Shown here piece by piece: positions 13,676 through 19,600 of a stretch of 64,000 bases of DNA. Source of the DNA: an uncultured Lachnospiraceae bacterium (GTDB taxonomy: Bacteria; Bacillota; Clostridia; TANB77; CAG-508); the NCBI GenBank assembly GCA_964616165.1, contig CAZTTS010000001.1, positions 17,537 to 81,536 of the forward strand. Direction: 5' to 3'. The position numbers were made by a program. Every line of letters starts with the position of its first letter. The first letter of the stretch is position 1.

Positions 13676-16600
13676 TAAAACATTAAAAATTAAAAAAAGA
13701 ACTAAAAAACAAATAAAAAACAAGAAATAAATAAAAGAAAACAAGTTTAAAATTAAACTTGTTTTTTTATATAAATTATTAATTAAATAAAAAACTTTAA
13801 ATTAGGAACTTTGATTCTTTATAAATAAAACTAAAGCTTTAATCACCTTTTGTAAATTTTGGAAATCCATTCTGTTTTGAGCATTAATTTCTAATTGCAT
13901 TACTTGTGAATTAGTAGAGTTATAAACTTTTTGTGTTATGCCACCACCTTTAAATAAAAAATTAGTTTTTATATCTAAAAGATTGTTTTTATTAAAGAAA
14001 CTAATTAAAGAATTAATAATATCAGCATTTGCTGTTATTCCATCTAAAGTACCAATATCAACATCAAAAGGCCTTTCTTCGTTTGCTCCATGAATATCTA
14101 TAACAAGTTGAATGTTTTGACTATTAATATATGAGATTAGTTTGTCTGTGTATTCATGTTTTTCTAAACAATTAGGATCTATATCACAAAGCTGATTATT
14201 TATAAAAGCATGAGTTTTAATATGTTTGCTTAAATAAAGAGCAATTGCTTTAGTAAAGGGCTCCTTCTTTTTTGTTATTCCACTAAAGTTTTGCTCAATA
14301 ACATGTGGTGCACTAATTAGAATAGGCAAACTACCTTCTACTATAGTAATGTTGTTTCCAAGCTTCAAATTTTCTAATTCTATTATTTCTTTTTTAAATT
14401 CTTCAAGTGATTTGTGGCTAAAAGAAGAAAATTCTCTATCTTTTAAATTCATTTTACCGACTTTCTATAAAACATATTAAAACTTATTCTTAATTAATTA
14501 TATACTAAAAGAAAAGTAGTTCCAATACAAAAAACTAAAAGTTTTATAAAGTAATGTTGACAAAAATGATATCTGTGATATATTGCCAACAAAAAAAGGA
14601 GATTATAATAAATACATTAGACTTTCTAGAGATTGAAAATATAATAGAAGACATATTAATTACAAAAGATAAATATATTAGAGTTCTAAAAATATCTCCC
14701 ATCAATTATGATCTTAAATCAGACTTCGAAAAACAATCTATAATAAATGCATATAAAACAGTTTTAAAAACCTGTGATTTTGATTTTCAAATTTTAATAT
14801 TATCTCAAAAAGAAAACATAGAAAAAAACATTAAAATATTAAATGAGCAATTATATAAAAAAACAGAGATGCTTAACAAAGAAAAAATTTTTTCTACAAA
14901 AGAAAAAGAAAGTCAAAACCTAGAAAATAAAACAAAAAAAATAAATGAAATTTATTTTAATTATTTAAATTTTATAAAAAAAATAAATAATAATATAAAC
15001 ATTAGTTCCAAGAATTTTTATATTATCCTTTACGAAAACAAAACAAATTTAGAAAAAAAAGGATGGAAAGAGTTATTAATTAAAAAACATAAAAAGAGAG
15101 ATAAAAACAAGGATTTTATTAAAAAAGAGAGAAAAAAAGAAAGTTTACATAATTTTACAAAAATAGAAGAAAAACTAAGTACAGAAAAACACTTACATTC
15201 TTTGGATGACAAGGAAAAGAAGATAAAAGTATCGATTGAAAAATGTGGCAATATTATTAAGAGATTAAGCAAGAAAGAGCTTTATGAACTACTTGTTTTG
15301 GAGCAGAAAGGAGGGAGCTATTTTAAAGGGAGTTTTTAGTAAAAAAGATGAAATCGCCCCATCATTTATATCAATATCTAAGCCTAAATATTTAGAAGTA
15401 GACAATATGTATTATGCAGGCTTAATTGTTGTTGACTATAATAGGGAAAACTCAGAAATTATTTTTAAAAATATAATTAATGAAAATATTAATATAAGAA
15501 TGAGTATTTTTTATGAGAAAAAAGATACATATAAAGCAATAAAAGAATTAACATATAATATCGGAAATATGGCTAGTGAAAATAAAGAAACTGAAGAAAT
15601 AGATTTAATTGCACACACAAAAGATGATGCAAGATATATAAGACGAGAGATGCAAATAAATAACGAAGAATTATACAATTTATATACATACATTGTTGTT
15701 TATGCAGAAGAGCTAGACAAATTATTTTTTAATTTAAATAAAATACAAGGAATTTTAGAGTCAAATGGATTGATTACAAAATTAGCAAACTTTAGAGAAG
15801 ACGAAGTTTTTAAAAGCACTCTACCCATCTTCTATAATCCTGATATCATAAAAAACGCAGCCAGAAGGAATGTATTAACTTCGGGACTAGTTGCTACTTA
15901 CCCATTTATACTTTCAAATATTTTTGATGAAAAAGGGATTTTTTTAGGTAAAAATATTATTAATAATTCAAACATATTTTTTAATAGATTTGACAATAAT
16001 AAATATAAAAATAGCAATATGTGCATTTTTGGGACATCAGGATCAGGTAAATCGTTTTTTGTTAAATTACAAATTTTAAGACAGTATTTATTTGGCATTA
16101 AACAATTTGTGATAGATCCTGAAAGAGAATACGATATATTGTGCAAGAATTTAGACGGGCAATATATAATTTTAGGCCCAGATTCTGATAGCTATATTAA
16201 TGTTTTGGAGATTAGAGAAAATTCTATTGAAGATAAACTAGGATATTTGAGTAGTAAATTATTAAAATTAAAATCTTTTTTTTATTTAATTTTTGATGAT
16301 ATGGAAATAGAAGAATATTCAATATTGGAAAAATATATTATTAAAATATATAAAAACAAACAAATAAGCTTTGATGATCAAAGCCTATTTAAAAACACAC
16401 AAACTAAAAATATACACTTAAATAAAACTTTTAAATCTTCACAAGACATGCCAATTATAGAAGACTTATATAATGAGATAGAAGAAGGAATAAAGACAAT
16501 TAAAAACATAAAAGAAAAGAATATATTACATGGCTTTAAAAACAAATTAGAAATTTTTGTAAATGGTTCATTGAAATTTTTTAATAAACGAACAAACATA

Positions 16601-19600
16601 ACTATAAATAATGACTTAATAGTTGCTGATATTTATTCAATAGGAGAAGAAAACTATAAATATGCAATGTTTTTGCTCACAGAATTATTTTGGGACACTA
16701 TTAAAGAAAATAGAAATGAAAAGAAATTAATATATATTGATGAGATTTGGAGAATTATTGGTGCTACTTCAAATAAAGAAACAGCCGCATTTATTTTTAA
16801 AATTTTTAAAACAATTAGAAAATATGGTGGTGGAGCTATAGCTATTACACAAGATGTTTCAGATATTTTTGCGCTAGATGAAGGAAGATACGGAAAGAGT
16901 ATACTTAACAACTCAGAAGTAAAAGCAATATTTAGCTTAGAAGAAGAAAATATAAAAACTTTAGAAAAGAATATAACTTTGTCTGAAAAAGAGAAAATTG
17001 AAATAAAAAACTTTAAAAGAGGTGAATGTCTGTTATTTGTTTCTAATACTCATTTGCTTTTAAATATTATAACATCAGAATTTGAAAAAGAACTATTGGA
17101 GAAAAAACATGAAAATATTAACAGCATTGAATAGCAGTGCTCTGTATAACAAATTAAATAAATCATTTAAAAGTTCTAAAAATATATTGCTGAATAAAGA
17201 TATTGTATACAAAGAAGGAATTATTGAGTTTTTAAAAACAAATAATGATATTAACATTTTAGTTCTAAACACAAATATTGAAGGTACAATAGACATATAT
17301 TCTTTAATTAAAGAAGTTTTAGAAATTAATAAATATATTGAAATTATTGCAATCATTAATAAAGATGACTTAGAATTGAGAAAATTCTTATCTAGCTATA
17401 ATATAAATAAAGTTTTAATAGAAGGAGAATTCCTTTTAGAAAATTTAATTGGATTAATAACTAACGATCAAAATATAAAACAAAAGTTAATAGAAAAAGA
17501 AATAGATGAACTAAGAAAGTTAGTTTTTGAAAAAAATCAAAATACATGGATAAACAAAATAAATACTCAGTTCCAAAACTTTAAAAGATATAACATAAAC
17601 CAAAGACAAAACAATAAAACAAAGAGTAAAACTGAAAAGGATAATAAAAAAGGAAAAGAAAGTAAAAGAAAAAACAAAAGTAAAAATAATTTTTTAAAAA
17701 GAAAAGAAAATTCTTTGAAAATAATCAAAAATAAAAGAATATATTTTACATTAAGTGAAGAGTTACAAAAATATAATATAGATTCTATTGATATTACAAT
17801 TAATATAAAAAGATAGTTTGGGTAGAAAGGTTATTATGCAAGAAGTATTAGACTTAAGTTTATTAAATGAAAAAACATTAGAAAATGTTTTAACAAAAGA
17901 AGTTCCTTTAGAAATACAAGAAGAAGTTTTAAAAGGACAAGAAAATTTTTTAAACACAACTTTAGGGAAAGCAGCTAATTTTGCTCTAGACATTGGATTA
18001 AAAGCATTATTACCAGATGTAGTAGAAGACATAGTAATAGACATTAAAGACACTATTTTTAGAGAGGGCTTTAAAGAAGGATTAAAAACTTTGGTAAGTT
18101 CTATTAAAGACATAGGCAAATCTTTAACTGGAATTGTTACTGGAAAATTTGAAAATATAAATCAAATTGATGTTGCAACAAAAAATGGAGGTGTAATTAA
18201 TACTACATCAAAACTATTAAATATTGGAATTGATAAAGCTATTGAAAAAGAGATTATAGATCCATCAGTTGGTAGTATTATACGTTCAGGAAAAACTGCA
18301 ATACTTTCAGCTTTTTCAAATAAATTAGAAGATAGTATAAAAAATCAATTTAGAACTTTTGAAAAATTAGAAAATCAAATAGAAAAGTGGGAAATAAATT
18401 TACAAAACCAAGAATTAGACAAAATGCAAAGAAATATAAACAATATAAATAGTTATAATAAAACTTTAGTGCCATTTGAAAATGTTTTGCTAAAGTCAAG
18501 AGAAGTAAACACAATTCATAATTGGATAAAAGAAAACAAATCTTTTGAAGTTCCGGAAGAACTTTATGAATTATTAAAAAACATTTAAAAAATTTCTATA
18601 AATTTAAAAAAGATATCAACAAAAACTTGTACATATAAAATTATAACAAAAAAAGTATTTTTAATTATCTTTTAATATGATATATTTAAATTAGAATATG
18701 TTTTGGAAGTTAAAATTAATTTAACGAAAAACATATTAAATTAAATTTATTTATGTAATAAGAAAGGGAATAGAAGTATTGTCAGAGATATTTAAGAACC
18801 TTATTTTTGTAATGTATAACTTAAGATATTATTTGTTAATATTTTGGTTGGCTTATTTATTAAGGCAATTAGCATATGCAATTAAATATTTTAAATCTGA
18901 CTATAAAAAAGAAAGTAATATTGGTTTAAGGAGGTTTTTGTATAATTCGAAATATTCTTCTGAAGGTTTACTTTTTATGAGATTAGAAAAAATTAAAAGA
19001 CATTCAAAAATTTTAACCAATTTACAGGTTCCCACAAAAGAAGGAATAGCAGACATAGATATAATTTATATAAATATTAATGGTTTATTTATGATTACTA
19101 GTAAAAATTATAGTGGTTGGATATATGGATCTACAAAAAGTGCAGAATGGACGAGAAAACTATTAGGAATTAAACATAGTTTTTTAAATATTCTTCAACA
19201 AAATGAAAAGAAAATTGAGTTTTTAGAAGAAGCATTACCAGAAACAGAAATTCAACAGTTAATTATTTTTAATAAAAAATGTGAATTAAAGAATCTTAAA
19301 GTAAACAGAAGAGTGGTTATAAAAGAAAGAGATTTAGAAAGAAGAGTCTTAAAATATAGATTTAGAAGAGCTTTTACAGAAGAAAGAGTTGATGAAATAT
19401 ATAATCAATTAAAACCATATGCTAATCAAGTTGTATTTGAAAAAATAGCACTTATTGACAGAGCAACAGACATATTGGTTAATAAAATAAGAAAACAAGA
19501 ACAAGTGACTAATGACGAAAATTAGTGATAAAACAAAAAGGTTTTGAATGAAGATAGAAACGGTTAATTTAAACAAAGAAAATTTAATAACAATAAAAGA

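What the first reader, a model, noticed from the sequence alone, without database searches (positions are those of the whole stretch)
14554..17134. VirB4-family ATPase split by a +1 frameshift
The N-terminal-domain ORF (frame 1, ends 15339) and the ATPase-core ORF (frame 2, opens by 15284) overlap by 56 nt. Together they give a roughly 850-aa VirB4/TcpF/Tn916-ORF16-like protein. A lysine-rich low-complexity stretch precedes the shift. This is either a pseudogene, a sequencing error in an A/T homopolymer region, or a two-polypeptide variant. The Walker A and B motifs in the C-fragment are intact.
Basis: seen in the sequence. Interest (0 to 1): 0.5.

Follow-up and report, generated by a model that had tools for sequence, protein, structure and literature searches.

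The report
Naturally two-gene VirB4 secretion ATPase
The apparent frameshift is the normal boundary between two separate genes, a small TrsD-like gene and a VirB4 ATPase core gene, which together replace a single-chain VirB4 motor and belong to a type IV secretion gene set fixed near the replication origin in hundreds of uncultured gut Clostridia species.

Summary
The two ORFs are real: 14554-15339 in frame 1 and 15284-17134 in frame 2, overlapping by 56 nt. The split is not a lesion. In 73 comparable loci from related uncultured gut Clostridia the two parts are never fused. They sit in every relative frame, from 77 nt of open-frame overlap to 1.5 kb apart. Both genes are under purifying selection (dN/dS 0.09 for the ATPase, 0.38 for the small gene). 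A strain 95% identical and three independent assemblies carry the same junction.

The small protein belongs to the TrsD/TraD ('TraC-like') family. It aligns to residues 20-203 of an 849-aa fused relative, whose residues 247-844 match the ATPase gene. This two-gene form is already known from plasmid pGO1 and from Patescibacteria.

In the closest relative the junction reads stop, AGGAGG, ATG. In the window that stop is lost, and the homologous start is ATT 15320, behind AAAGGAGGG. In 33 of 74 loci no ATG, GTG or TTG start is available, so AUU/AUA initiation is likely.

The pair is usually flanked by gyrB and gyrA, followed by a ParA-like gene, with coupling-protein, pilin-like and VirB6-like genes nearby.

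Verdict: observation confirmed; frameshift, pseudogene and sequencing error rejected; two-polypeptide variant supported.

The parts
14554..15339 (+). Small gene ('N'), a TrsD/TraD-family ('TraC-like', PF26593) protein that corresponds to the detached N-terminal region of VirB4. This is the longest ORF, 261 aa. Gene callers start it at 14566 (257 aa). The true start may lie further downstream, around 14602-14610.
14557..14584 (+). Promoter-like site, TTGACA-16 nt-TATATT with TG before the -10 hexamer. It lies inside the first codons of the longest N ORF.
   Evidence: Best consensus match in the region, 11 of 12 positions. TTGACA and TGTGATATATTGCC are identical in the window, L008 and L009 while the spacer between them varies. 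That this is a functional promoter is an inference.
14863..15189 (+). Region of the N gene that holds two lineage-specific Lys/Glu-rich low-complexity insertions (about residues 104-127 and 165-212).
   Evidence: Alignment A4: the insertions are present only in the window, L008 and L009 and absent from the other 20 orthologues. The second insertion (residues 166-205) has AF2 pLDDT below 50; the first (residues 104-127) is modelled as helix at pLDDT 81-88.
15307..15322 (+). Shine-Dalgarno sequence AAAGGAGGG (15307-15315) followed by ATT (15320-15322). This is the position homologous to the ATG start of the ATPase gene in the closest relative.
   Evidence: DNA alignments with L008 and L091. The start-codon survey finds AAGGAGG with a 5-nt spacer before ATT. 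Use of ATT here is an inference.
15284..17134 (+). VirB4-family ATPase core gene ('C'). The longest ORF runs from ATG 15284 (616 aa). The probable CDS is 15320-17134 (604 aa, the same length as in L008).
   Evidence: Pfam P-loop_TraG 64 bits, AAA_10 46 bits and DUF87 32 bits, all above their cut-offs. NCBIfam conju_CD1110 positions 185-731, E 1.8e-78. Residues 211-603 match the PDB 4AG5 VirB4 ATPase domain at 2.8e-37. dN/dS is 0.09.
16031..16054 (+). Walker A motif GTSGSGKS (C residues 250-257).
   Evidence: Translation. G250, S252, G253, G255, K256 and S257 are invariant in alignment A1.
16730..16753 (+). Walker B region IYIDEIWR (C residues 483-490).
   Evidence: Translation. I483, Y484, D486, E487, I488, W489 and R490 are invariant in A1.
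17082..17816 (+). Third gene of the cassette ('o3'). It keeps the receiver-like N-terminal domain of a REC + ParA/MinD-type protein, but the ATPase domain is missing in this lineage. Gene callers start it at 17109. It overlaps the end of the C gene.
   Evidence: Alignment A3. The orthologue profile hits PF-32, MinD and Soj chains at 1.7e-15 to 2e-9. Orthologues hit Pfam AAA_31 and CbiA. P-loop motifs are present in 37 of the 67 o3 ORFs listed, four of them duplicate L001-type records.
17818..18588 (+). Fourth gene of the cassette ('o4'), a clade-specific all-helical soluble protein of unknown family. Gene callers start it at 17836.
   Evidence: Conserved downstream of the ATPase gene in 35 of 40 loci with enough flank. 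dN/dS is 0.11. No Pfam, NCBIfam, PHROG, PADLOC or PDB-sequence match. The AF2 model is poor, pLDDT 56.
54700..56415 (+). Type IV coupling protein (VirD4/TraG-like) with an N-terminal hydrophobic region (seen by eye) and a P-loop.
   Evidence: Pfam TrwB_AAD_bind 36.4 bits and TraG-D_C 27.2 bits, both above cut-off; NCBIfam SXT_TraD 3.3e-14. Orthologues lie just beyond gyrA in 17 related loci.
57770..58138 (+). VirB2-like T4SS pilin candidate (122 aa, hydrophobic segments).
   Evidence: Pfam T4SS_pilin E 1e-3 and TrbC/VirB2 E 4.5e-3, both below cut-off. All 5 orthologues tested hit T4SS_pilin (6e-6 to 1.3e-2), one of them at the cut-off. It is syntenic with the coupling-protein and VirB6-like genes in 17 loci.
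58138..58992 (+). VirB6/TrbL-like polytopic membrane protein candidate. The assignment is weak.
   Evidence: NCBIfam PRK13852 (type IV secretion system protein) E 4.2e-4 and Pfam TrbL/VirB6 E 0.075. Five orthologues gave no Pfam hit. It is conserved next to the pilin-like gene in 21 loci.

Best explanation
The locus encodes a VirB4-type type IV secretion ATPase as two polypeptides, as a native and conserved arrangement.

The upstream gene makes a TrsD/TraD-family protein. It corresponds to about the first 200 residues of single-chain VirB4 relatives. The downstream gene makes the rest: the middle region and the RecA-like ATPase domain, with intact Walker A and B motifs.

The two genes are probably transcribed together with two more soluble proteins (o3 and o4). 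The ATPase gene has its own ribosome-binding site (AAAGGAGGG, 15307-15315). It most likely starts at ATT 15320, the position of the ATG in the closest relative. That start lies 20 nt before the stop of the upstream gene, so translation of the two is probably coupled. ATG 15284 is in frame only because of a lineage-specific indel.

The two proteins are inferred to assemble after translation into a complete VirB4. The small subunit would supply the part that, in solved systems, docks the hexameric motor onto the membrane components. The motor would power a chromosomal type IV secretion apparatus whose coupling-protein, pilin-like and VirB6-like genes lie nearby.

Shown: homology and collinearity, separate ORFs throughout the clade, purifying selection, synteny, and the same junction in independent assemblies. 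Inferred: the start codon, the physical N-C complex, the operon structure, and the substrate and role of the apparatus.
For: Collinearity with single-chain VirB4. The NCBIfam model VirB4_plasma is matched at positions 97-243 by N and 306-893 by C; conju_CD1110 is matched at 185-731 by C. The N profile aligns to residues 20-203 of the 849-aa P0272 (hhalign 99.7%, E 1.3e-26). C matches residues 247-844 of the same protein at 40% identity. The N profile also aligns to residues 127-292 of the 942-aa Vescimonas PrgI-VirB4 fusion (98.6%), whose later part matches C at 31.6% identity.

The split is conserved. All 120 listed C homologues are 548-630 aa, and all 120 listed N homologues are 152-263 aa. 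None of 73 loci is fused; the open frames range from -77 to +1489 nt apart and all three frame relations occur. N lies upstream of C in 68 of 71 loci with enough flank.

Selection. dN/dS is 0.09 for C, 0.38 for N and 0.09 for gyrB.

Not an error. L005-L007 are identical, and the 95% strain L091 has the same junction.

Origin of the junction. L008 reads TAA, AGGAGG, then ATG in the same frame.

Start codon. The window has AAGGAGG, 5 nt, then ATT. In 33 of 74 loci there is no ATG, GTG or TTG upstream of the conserved N-terminal motif, and typically AAGGAGG precedes ATT or ATA.

Other T4SS genes. Coupling-protein, pilin-like and VirB6-like genes are in the window and syntenic in relatives.

Literature. 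[quoted passage not shown]
Against: No experiment shows that N and C bind each other or that either is expressed.

The window's own N copy scores weakly (VirB4_plasma 22 bits). It did not hit the TrsD/TraD model at E <= 0.01 and had no hit in the local Pfam copy, which appears to lack PF26593.

C is below the NCBIfam equivalog cut-offs (264.6 against 325; 246.6 against 590).

The ATT start is inferred only from alignment and the Shine-Dalgarno position; ATG 15284 remains possible.

The VirB6-like and pilin-like assignments are below curated cut-offs.

No VirB3/PrgI, VirB8 or VirB1 homologue was identified, so the apparatus may be incomplete or may do something other than secretion.
Confidence: 0.9

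Rival explanations
1. Pseudogene: a single ancestral VirB4 gene was recently broken by a +1 frameshift in this genome and is decaying.
For: The two ORFs overlap in different frames and are collinear with fused relatives. The neighbouring o3 has lost its ATPase domain in this lineage, so some erosion of the cassette does occur.
Against: The split exists in all 73 comparable loci, across relatives only 55-59% identical. dN/dS for C is 0.09, equal to gyrB, and 0.38 for N. Walker motifs and dozens of invariant residues are intact. Each gene has its own translation signals, and in L008 the junction is a clean stop, SD, ATG.
Confidence: 0.02
2. Sequencing or assembly error at a homopolymer produced an artificial frame change in a gene that is really continuous.
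For: The genome is about 26% GC, with short T5 and A6 runs next to the stop at 15333-15346.
Against: Three independently assembled contigs from different sequencing runs are identical over the region. A strain 95% identical from another assembly (GCA_046128275.1) has the same junction with point substitutions and no indel. Relatives have stops and gaps of up to 1.5 kb between the genes.
Confidence: 0.01
3. Programmed +1 ribosomal frameshift: in this lineage some ribosomes slip at TTT TAG T (15334-15340), as in prfB, and make an N-C fusion in addition to the separate products.
For: The N ORF ends in U UUU UAG U, where tRNA-Phe could re-pair in the +1 frame. A strong SD-like AAAGGAGGG lies upstream. 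The 95% strain keeps the same sequence.
Against: The SD-like element ends 18 nt before the slip codon, whereas the prfB type needs about 3 nt (established knowledge of prfB). It is placed correctly to act as the ribosome-binding site of ATT 15320. The junction is not conserved even in the nearest species: L008 has the two genes in the same frame separated by TAA, and L009 has a 7-nt overlap of the open frames in another frame relation. A fusion is therefore not required in the clade.
Confidence: 0.04
4. The small ORF is functionally unrelated to the ATPase (an independent gene that merely sits upstream), and the 600-aa protein is a complete enzyme on its own.
For: VirB4-like proteins of about 600 aa are common. 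[quoted passage not shown] N evolves faster than C.
Against: N is homologous to exactly the segment that C lacks relative to fused relatives. It is immediately upstream of C in 68 of 71 loci. The same pairing recurs in pGO1 and in Patescibacteria, where 1,664 of 2,272 TrsD homologues are associated with VirB4 (PMC12102498).
Confidence: 0.03

Closest known systems
TrsD + TrsE of Staphylococcus plasmids pGO1/pSK41 (pGO1 subclass of the MPF-FATA class of T4SS). From my own knowledge, TraD + TraE of pIP501 is a further example.
   Same: A small protein remotely homologous to the N-terminal part of VirB4 accompanies a VirB4 ATPase (pGO1: PMC12102498; that it sits immediately upstream of a ~600-650-aa ATPase is from my own knowledge of pGO1/pSK41). 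NCBIfam TrsD/TraD NF041427 is hit by 17 of 23 orthologues of the small gene.
   Different: Those systems are plasmid-borne conjugation operons with a relaxase and VirB1/VirB8-type partners, and they lack VirB2-like pilins and VirB6 (PMC12102498). Here the pair is chromosomal, usually flanked by gyrB and gyrA, and vertically inherited. It is followed by a REC-ParA-like gene and a clade-specific gene, and it is accompanied by pilin-like and VirB6-like genes. No direct sequence comparison with pGO1 TrsD or TrsE was made.
Chromosomal T4SS of Patescibacteria/CPR (Quinonero-Coronel et al. 2025, PMC12102498)
   Same: TrsD homologue next to VirB4; VirB2-like pilin and VirB6 homologues; the coupling protein can be distant from virB4; no relaxase in the neighbourhood; located near dnaA/dnaN at the replication origin; wide vertical distribution in a lineage of uncultured bacteria.
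   Different: The host here is a low-GC gut Clostridia lineage rather than Patescibacteria. No PrgI/VirB3 homologue was found. A ParA-like gene and o4 belong to the cassette. Whether the VirB4 falls inside or beside the Patescibacteria clade was not tested. Essentiality is unknown.
Single-chain VirB4 of Firmicutes conjugative elements (NCBIfam conju_CD1110; Vescimonas fastidiosa pMM35_02 PrgI-VirB4 fusion WP_212822118.1; metagenomic P0272)
   Same: Same domain order and about 30-40% identity over the ATPase core. The N profile aligns to the segment just before it.
   Different: Those are one polypeptide of 750-940 aa, sometimes with VirB3/PrgI fused as well. Here the first ~200 residues are a separate gene product.
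TrwK/VirB4 of plasmid R388 (PDB 7O42, 8RTB) and the VirB4 C-terminal domain of Thermoanaerobacter pseudethanolicus (PDB 4AG5)
   Different: These come from Gram-negative or single-chain proteins. Sequence identity of N to TrwK is 16%, and the Foldseek match was not significant.

Membership tests
VirB4/TraC/TrsE family of T4SS ATPases | RecA-like P-loop ATPase domain of the VirB4 type (Pfam P-loop_TraG PF19044 / AAA_10 PF12846) with Walker A and B motifs | tested here: met
   PF19044 64 bits (cut-off 25.8) and PF12846 46.1 bits (cut-off 27.5). GTSGSGKS and DEIW are invariant in A1. PDB 4AG5 VirB4 domain 2.8e-37.
VirB4/TraC/TrsE family of T4SS ATPases | Full-length match above the curated cut-off of an NCBIfam VirB4 equivalog model | tested here: not met
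   conju_CD1110 264.6 bits against 325; VirB4_plasma 246.6 against 590; TraC-F-type 139 against 567. A shortfall is expected because the first ~185 profile positions are on another polypeptide. The fused relative P0272 also stays below cut-off (286 against 325).
VirB4/TraC/TrsE family of T4SS ATPases | VirB4 N-terminal region present | tested here: met
   It is present, but on a separate polypeptide. N aligns to residues 20-203 of P0272 and 127-292 of the Vescimonas fusion, and to VirB4_plasma positions 97-243.
VirB4/TraC/TrsE family of T4SS ATPases | Genomic association with other T4SS components | tested here: met
   A coupling protein scores above Pfam cut-offs at 54700-56415. Pilin-like and VirB6-like candidates lie at 57770-58992. 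The trio is syntenic just beyond gyrA in 17-21 related loci. VirB3, VirB8 and VirB1 were not found.
VirB4/TraC/TrsE family of T4SS ATPases | Hexameric ATPase activity and a requirement for substrate transfer | not testable with these tools
   Needs biochemistry or genetics in an uncultured organism.
TrsD/TraD family (NCBIfam NF041427; Pfam PF26593 TraC-like) | Match to the family model | tested here: inconclusive
   PF26593 is recorded in the precomputed annotation of the identical protein P0121 and of all 120 listed homologues. NF041427 is hit by 17 of 23 orthologues (best 7.9e-8) but not by the window copy at E <= 0.01. Whether any score passes the curated cut-off was not reported. The local Pfam copy appears to lack PF26593.
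TrsD/TraD family (NCBIfam NF041427; Pfam PF26593 TraC-like) | Encoded immediately upstream of, and on the same strand as, a VirB4 gene that lacks its N-terminal region | tested here: met
   True in the window and in 68 of 71 related loci.
Programmed +1 frameshift genes (prfB type) | Conserved slippery codon plus in-frame stop, with an SD-like stimulator about 3 nt upstream, and a fused product conserved in relatives | tested here: not met
   UUU UAG is present, but the SD-like element ends 18 nt upstream. The junction differs in L008 and L009, and the other 70 loci have other frames or gaps.
Patescibacteria-type co-opted chromosomal T4SS (PMC12102498) | TrsD-VirB4 pair on the chromosome near the replication origin | tested here: met
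   The 447-aa ORF taken to be dnaA starts at 7783 (named from gene order and the Pfam-annotated L001 arrangement), and the GC-skew sign change falls at about 7-8 kb. gyrB ends at 13678. recF-gyrB lies upstream in 58 of 63 loci.
Patescibacteria-type co-opted chromosomal T4SS (PMC12102498) | No relaxase associated with the T4SS genes | tested here: inconclusive
   No relaxase Pfam family appears in the precomputed annotations of the neighbourhoods. No dedicated relaxase search (MOBscan) was run, and the rest of the genome is not available.
Patescibacteria-type co-opted chromosomal T4SS (PMC12102498) | VirB4 belongs phylogenetically to the Patescibacteria clade within MPF-FATA | not tested
   No reference VirB4 set or taxonomy was available. 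Cluster look-up returned no names.

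The most novel reading that the evidence does not exclude
A large clade of uncultured, low-GC gut Clostridia (at least 562 species-level genomes) has domesticated a monoderm conjugation-type T4SS. The set comprises a split TrsD + VirB4 motor, a REC-ParA-like protein, a clade-specific helical protein, a coupling protein, a VirB2-like pilin and a VirB6-like protein. It sits at a fixed chromosomal site around gyrA next to oriC and no relaxase is visible nearby. That would be a second, independent or shared, case of the co-opted origin-proximal T4SS recently described in Patescibacteria, with a role other than plasmid transfer, such as DNA or macromolecule uptake or cell-cell interaction. 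A further element of this reading is that expression of the motor is tuned by a conserved non-AUG (AUU/AUA) start codon.
Probability: 0.35. Interest if true: 0.65.

Novelty: new member of a known kind. Interest (0 to 1): 0.4.

Why it matters
For annotation: the junction should not be flagged as a frameshift or pseudogene. Gene callers systematically mis-start or truncate the ATPase gene, giving products of 482-560 aa, in the many species where it lacks an ATG, GTG or TTG start.

For biology: the TrsD + VirB4 two-gene motor has been noted in the pGO1 subclass of plasmids and in Patescibacteria. Here it is fixed in the chromosome of hundreds of gut Clostridia species beside the replication origin, together with coupling-protein, pilin-like and VirB6-like genes.

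If this is a co-opted apparatus like the one that is essential for the epibiotic life of a Patescibacterium, it points to an unrecognised cell-cell or DNA-uptake function in a widespread but uncultured gut lineage. It would also offer a comparative handle on what TrsD does. The natural split marks a domain boundary in VirB4 that tolerates separation.

Tried and rejected
- Structure of o4: the AF2 model has pLDDT 56 and is all helical, too poor for a fold search. Its profile finds nothing among PDB sequences.
- The N profile against PDB sequences: nothing.
- Rfam on window 13000-20000 and on the AT-rich spacer of L029: no family.
- PADLOC: only a generic ATPase match of C to mad8, so there is no support for a defence system.
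- PHROGs: phrog_2666, labelled 'terminase large subunit', matches C (window copy) and the L001 orthologue of N collinearly. I read this as a VirB4-like family with a doubtful label, not as evidence for a phage.
- Cluster look-up to obtain organism names for distant relatives: no names returned.
- Neighbourhood of the L031 subgroup, where the cassette is not flanked by gyrB and gyrA: only housekeeping-type genes, no extra T4SS or relaxase genes.
- Terminator and promoter scans are at chance level overall (42 promoter-like sites found, 42 expected). Only the single conserved site at 14557-14584 is used.
- A rRNA operon as the explanation for the ORF-free 4.6-kb spacer in L029: rejected, since there is no Rfam hit and GC is 12%.

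Full report
**Observation.** The window contains ORF 14554-15339 (+, frame 1, 261 aa) and ORF 15284-17134 (+, frame 2, 616 aa), overlapping by 56 nt. Frame translations confirm the TAG at 15337-15339, and that frame 2 is open from 15269 with its first ATG at 15284. The larger ORF carries VirB4-type domains above Pfam cut-offs: P-loop_TraG 64 bits, AAA_10 46 bits, DUF87 32 bits. It also has intact Walker A (GTSGSGKS) and Walker B (DEIW) motifs.

**Are the two ORFs parts of one VirB4?** Yes, in the evolutionary sense.
- The large ORF (C) aligns to positions 185-731 of the 752-position conju_CD1110 model and to positions 306-893 of the 894-position VirB4_plasma model. The small ORF (N) aligns to positions 97-243 of VirB4_plasma.
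- Of 23 N orthologues scanned one by one, 22 hit VirB4_plasma, 20 hit conju_CD1110, 17 hit the TrsD/TraD model and 11 hit VirB4_CagE.
- An exhaustive search of 1.8 billion representatives with C found the nearest single-chain relative, P0272 (849 aa, 40% identity), matching at its residues 247-844. The N profile aligns to residues 20-203 of the same protein (hhalign 99.7%, E 1.3e-26).
- The best plasmid relative is a 942-aa PrgI-VirB4 fusion of Vescimonas fastidiosa (31.6% identity to C). It is matched by the N profile at residues 127-292 (98.6%).

**Is the split a lesion?** No.
- All 120 listed homologues of C are 548-630 aa. All 120 listed homologues of N are separate proteins of 152-263 aa annotated PF26593 'TraC-like'.
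- A scan of one genome per species found at least 562 relatives. The 80 retrieved are all uncultured gut Clostridia/Bacillota MAGs from rabbit, chicken, mouse, sheep and human.
- In the 73 loci that hold both genes, none has them fused. A stop always ends N. The distance from that stop to the C open frame ranges from -77 to +1489 nt, and all three frame relations occur.
- N lies upstream of C in 68 of 71 loci with enough flank.
- Against the nearest species (L008), dN/dS is 0.09 for C, the same as gyrB, and 0.38 for N, which includes fast-evolving Lys-rich insertions. dS is high (0.7-1.2), so these values are approximate.
- Three independent assemblies are identical to the window. A strain 95% identical from another assembly has the same junction with point substitutions only.
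- Pseudogene and sequencing error are therefore rejected.

**How the overlap arose, and where C starts.** In L008 (C 82% identical) N ends …LIF-TAA. AGGAGG follows, and C starts at an ATG 15 nt after the stop, in the same frame. In the window the TAA is gone and an indel has changed the frame relation. N therefore reads on for 13 codons, through the conserved AAAGGAGGG (15307-15315), to TAG 15337.

The codon homologous to the L008 ATG is ATT 15320, 5 nt after AAGGAGG. ATG 15284 lies inside N. Its counterpart in L008 is out of frame with C, so its being in frame here looks accidental.

This is not a one-off. In 33 of 74 loci there is no ATG, GTG or TTG between the upstream in-frame stop and the conserved N-terminal motif (…KD.I.PSYI…). 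A strong SD followed by ATT or ATA is the rule there. That explains truncated gene calls such as the 548-aa products. I infer AUU/AUA initiation of C; this is not shown experimentally.

A prfB-like +1 shift at UUU UAG U cannot be excluded for this lineage. It is unsupported, because the SD-like element is 18 nt away and the junction is not conserved.

**Context.** The window starts at the replication origin. The GC-skew sign changes at about 7-8 kb, and the ORFs I take to be dnaA (from 7783), dnaN (9430) and recF (10554), named from gene order and the Pfam-annotated L001 arrangement, precede gyrB at 11750-13678. In distant relatives (C 58% identical) the order is dnaA-dnaN-recF-gyrB-N-C-o3-o4-(small ORFs)-gyrA. 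Across the 80 species loci, among those with enough flanking sequence:
- gyrB is upstream in 58 of 63;
- o3 is downstream in 58 of 66;
- o4 is downstream in 35 of 40;
- gyrA is downstream in 31 of 40.

o3 is a receiver-like domain plus a ParA/MinD ATPase in most species. Its profile hits PF-32, MinD and Soj at 1.7e-15 to 2e-9, and orthologues hit Pfam AAA_31 and CbiA. In the window's subclade only the N-terminal domain remains. o4 is a clade-specific helical protein with no family. None of the four proteins has a predicted membrane span.

**Other T4SS genes.** The window also encodes:
- a coupling protein at 54700-56415 (TrwB_AAD_bind 36.4 bits and TraG-D_C 27.2 bits, both above cut-off);
- a VirB2-like pilin candidate at 57770-58138 (T4SS_pilin E 1e-3; all five orthologues tested hit the same model, one at the cut-off);
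- a weak VirB6-like polytopic protein at 58138-58992.

In 17-21 related loci this trio lies just beyond gyrA on the opposite strand. In the window, strain-variable polysaccharide and restriction-modification genes have pushed the groups apart. No relaxase family appears in the precomputed neighbourhood annotations, but no dedicated search was possible.

[quoted passage not shown] It is present in only the pGO1 subclass of MPF-FATA systems and has no assigned function. It is abundant next to VirB4 in Patescibacteria, whose relaxase-less chromosomal T4SS often lies near dnaA/dnaN and is essential for epibiotic growth in one cultured strain (PMC12102498). The two-gene VirB4 is therefore a known architecture, and the finding is a new member of it. 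What I did not find described is the fixed gyrB-gyrA location and the clade-wide vertical conservation in gut Clostridia. The REC-ParA-like and o4 partners and the widespread non-AUG start are likewise not in what I read. My literature search was limited.

**Mechanism, as far as it can be argued.** N and C are made separately from one transcript, probably with coupled translation. They assemble into a complete VirB4. N supplies the region that, in the R388 structures, belongs to the domain contacting the membrane subunits (that contact is from my knowledge of those structures). The motor serves the chromosomal T4SS.
- Shown: homology, collinearity, conservation, selection.
- Inferred: complex formation, the start codon, the operon, the role of the apparatus.

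**Verdict.** Observation confirmed. The frameshift, pseudogene and error readings are rejected, and the two-polypeptide reading is supported (confidence 0.9). The finding itself is ordinary for T4SS specialists. The surrounding conserved, origin-proximal T4SS gene set gives it moderate interest (0.4).

Noticed in passing
window 54700-56415, 57770-58138, 58138-58992: A type IV coupling protein (above Pfam cut-offs), a VirB2-like pilin candidate and a weak VirB6-like membrane protein lie about 38-42 kb downstream of the VirB4 gene. A 338-aa minus-strand ORF at 56527-57543, whose identical product in L089 carries Pfam AsnA, is inserted between the coupling-protein gene and the pilin-like gene. 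In related species the same trio sits just beyond gyrA on the opposite strand.
   Followed up: partly
74 loci (window, L001-L087); window 15307-15322: In 33 of 74 loci the VirB4 core gene has no ATG, GTG or TTG start upstream of its conserved N-terminus. A strong AAGGAGG followed by ATT or ATA is typical, which suggests conserved AUU/AUA initiation. Gene callers truncate these genes to about 480-560 aa.
   Followed up: partly
window 14557-14610: A near-consensus promoter (TTGACA, 16 nt, TATATT with an upstream TG) lies inside the first codons of the annotated small gene. It is conserved base for base in L008 and L009 while the spacer between the hexamers varies. It is followed by CAAAAAAAGGAG and ATT/ATA codons, so the small gene may also start at a non-AUG codon near 14602-14610.
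   Followed up: partly
L029 12906-17519; also L074, L041, L025, L066, L059 and ten others, between o3 and o4: In 16 of 45 species the spacer between the ParA-like gene and o4 is 0.5-4.6 kb of ORF-poor DNA with 8-18% GC and 52-64% A on the coding strand. In L029 it is a tandem array of about five ~855-bp units. There is no Rfam match, and the window has no such spacer. Unexplained.
   Followed up: partly
window 17082-17816: In the window's subclade (also L008 and L009) the ParA-like partner o3 has lost its whole ATPase domain, keeping only the receiver-like N-terminal domain and a Lys-rich tail. In other species the P-loop is present, or degenerate as in L001.
   Followed up: yes
window 13802-14452 (-) and 18779-41023: Between gyrB and gyrA this genome carries about 24 kb of extra genes that more distant relatives lack at this site: a formylglutamate-amidohydrolase-like gene, a NERD-domain gene, galE, glf, glycosyltransferases, an ABC transporter, a CotH-domain gene and a HaeIII-type restriction-modification pair. 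A related strain (L088) has an MmeI-type enzyme in place of part of this region.
   Followed up: partly
L031, L035, L038, L051, L058, L077, L082: A subgroup of species (C about 63% identical to the L001 type) keeps N-C-o3 together but not flanked by gyrB and gyrA. In L031 the neighbours are a DUF5722 protein, methyltransferases and acetyltransferases.
   Followed up: partly
window 50203-51072 and 51112-52068: Two paralogous genes (about 30% identical) encode proteins with an N-terminal hydrophobic segment (seen by eye in the translations) and no family assignment. They lie upstream of a leucine-rich-repeat/transglutaminase-like protein (52259-54049) and the coupling-protein gene. No homologue was found in the other loci held.
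   Followed up: no
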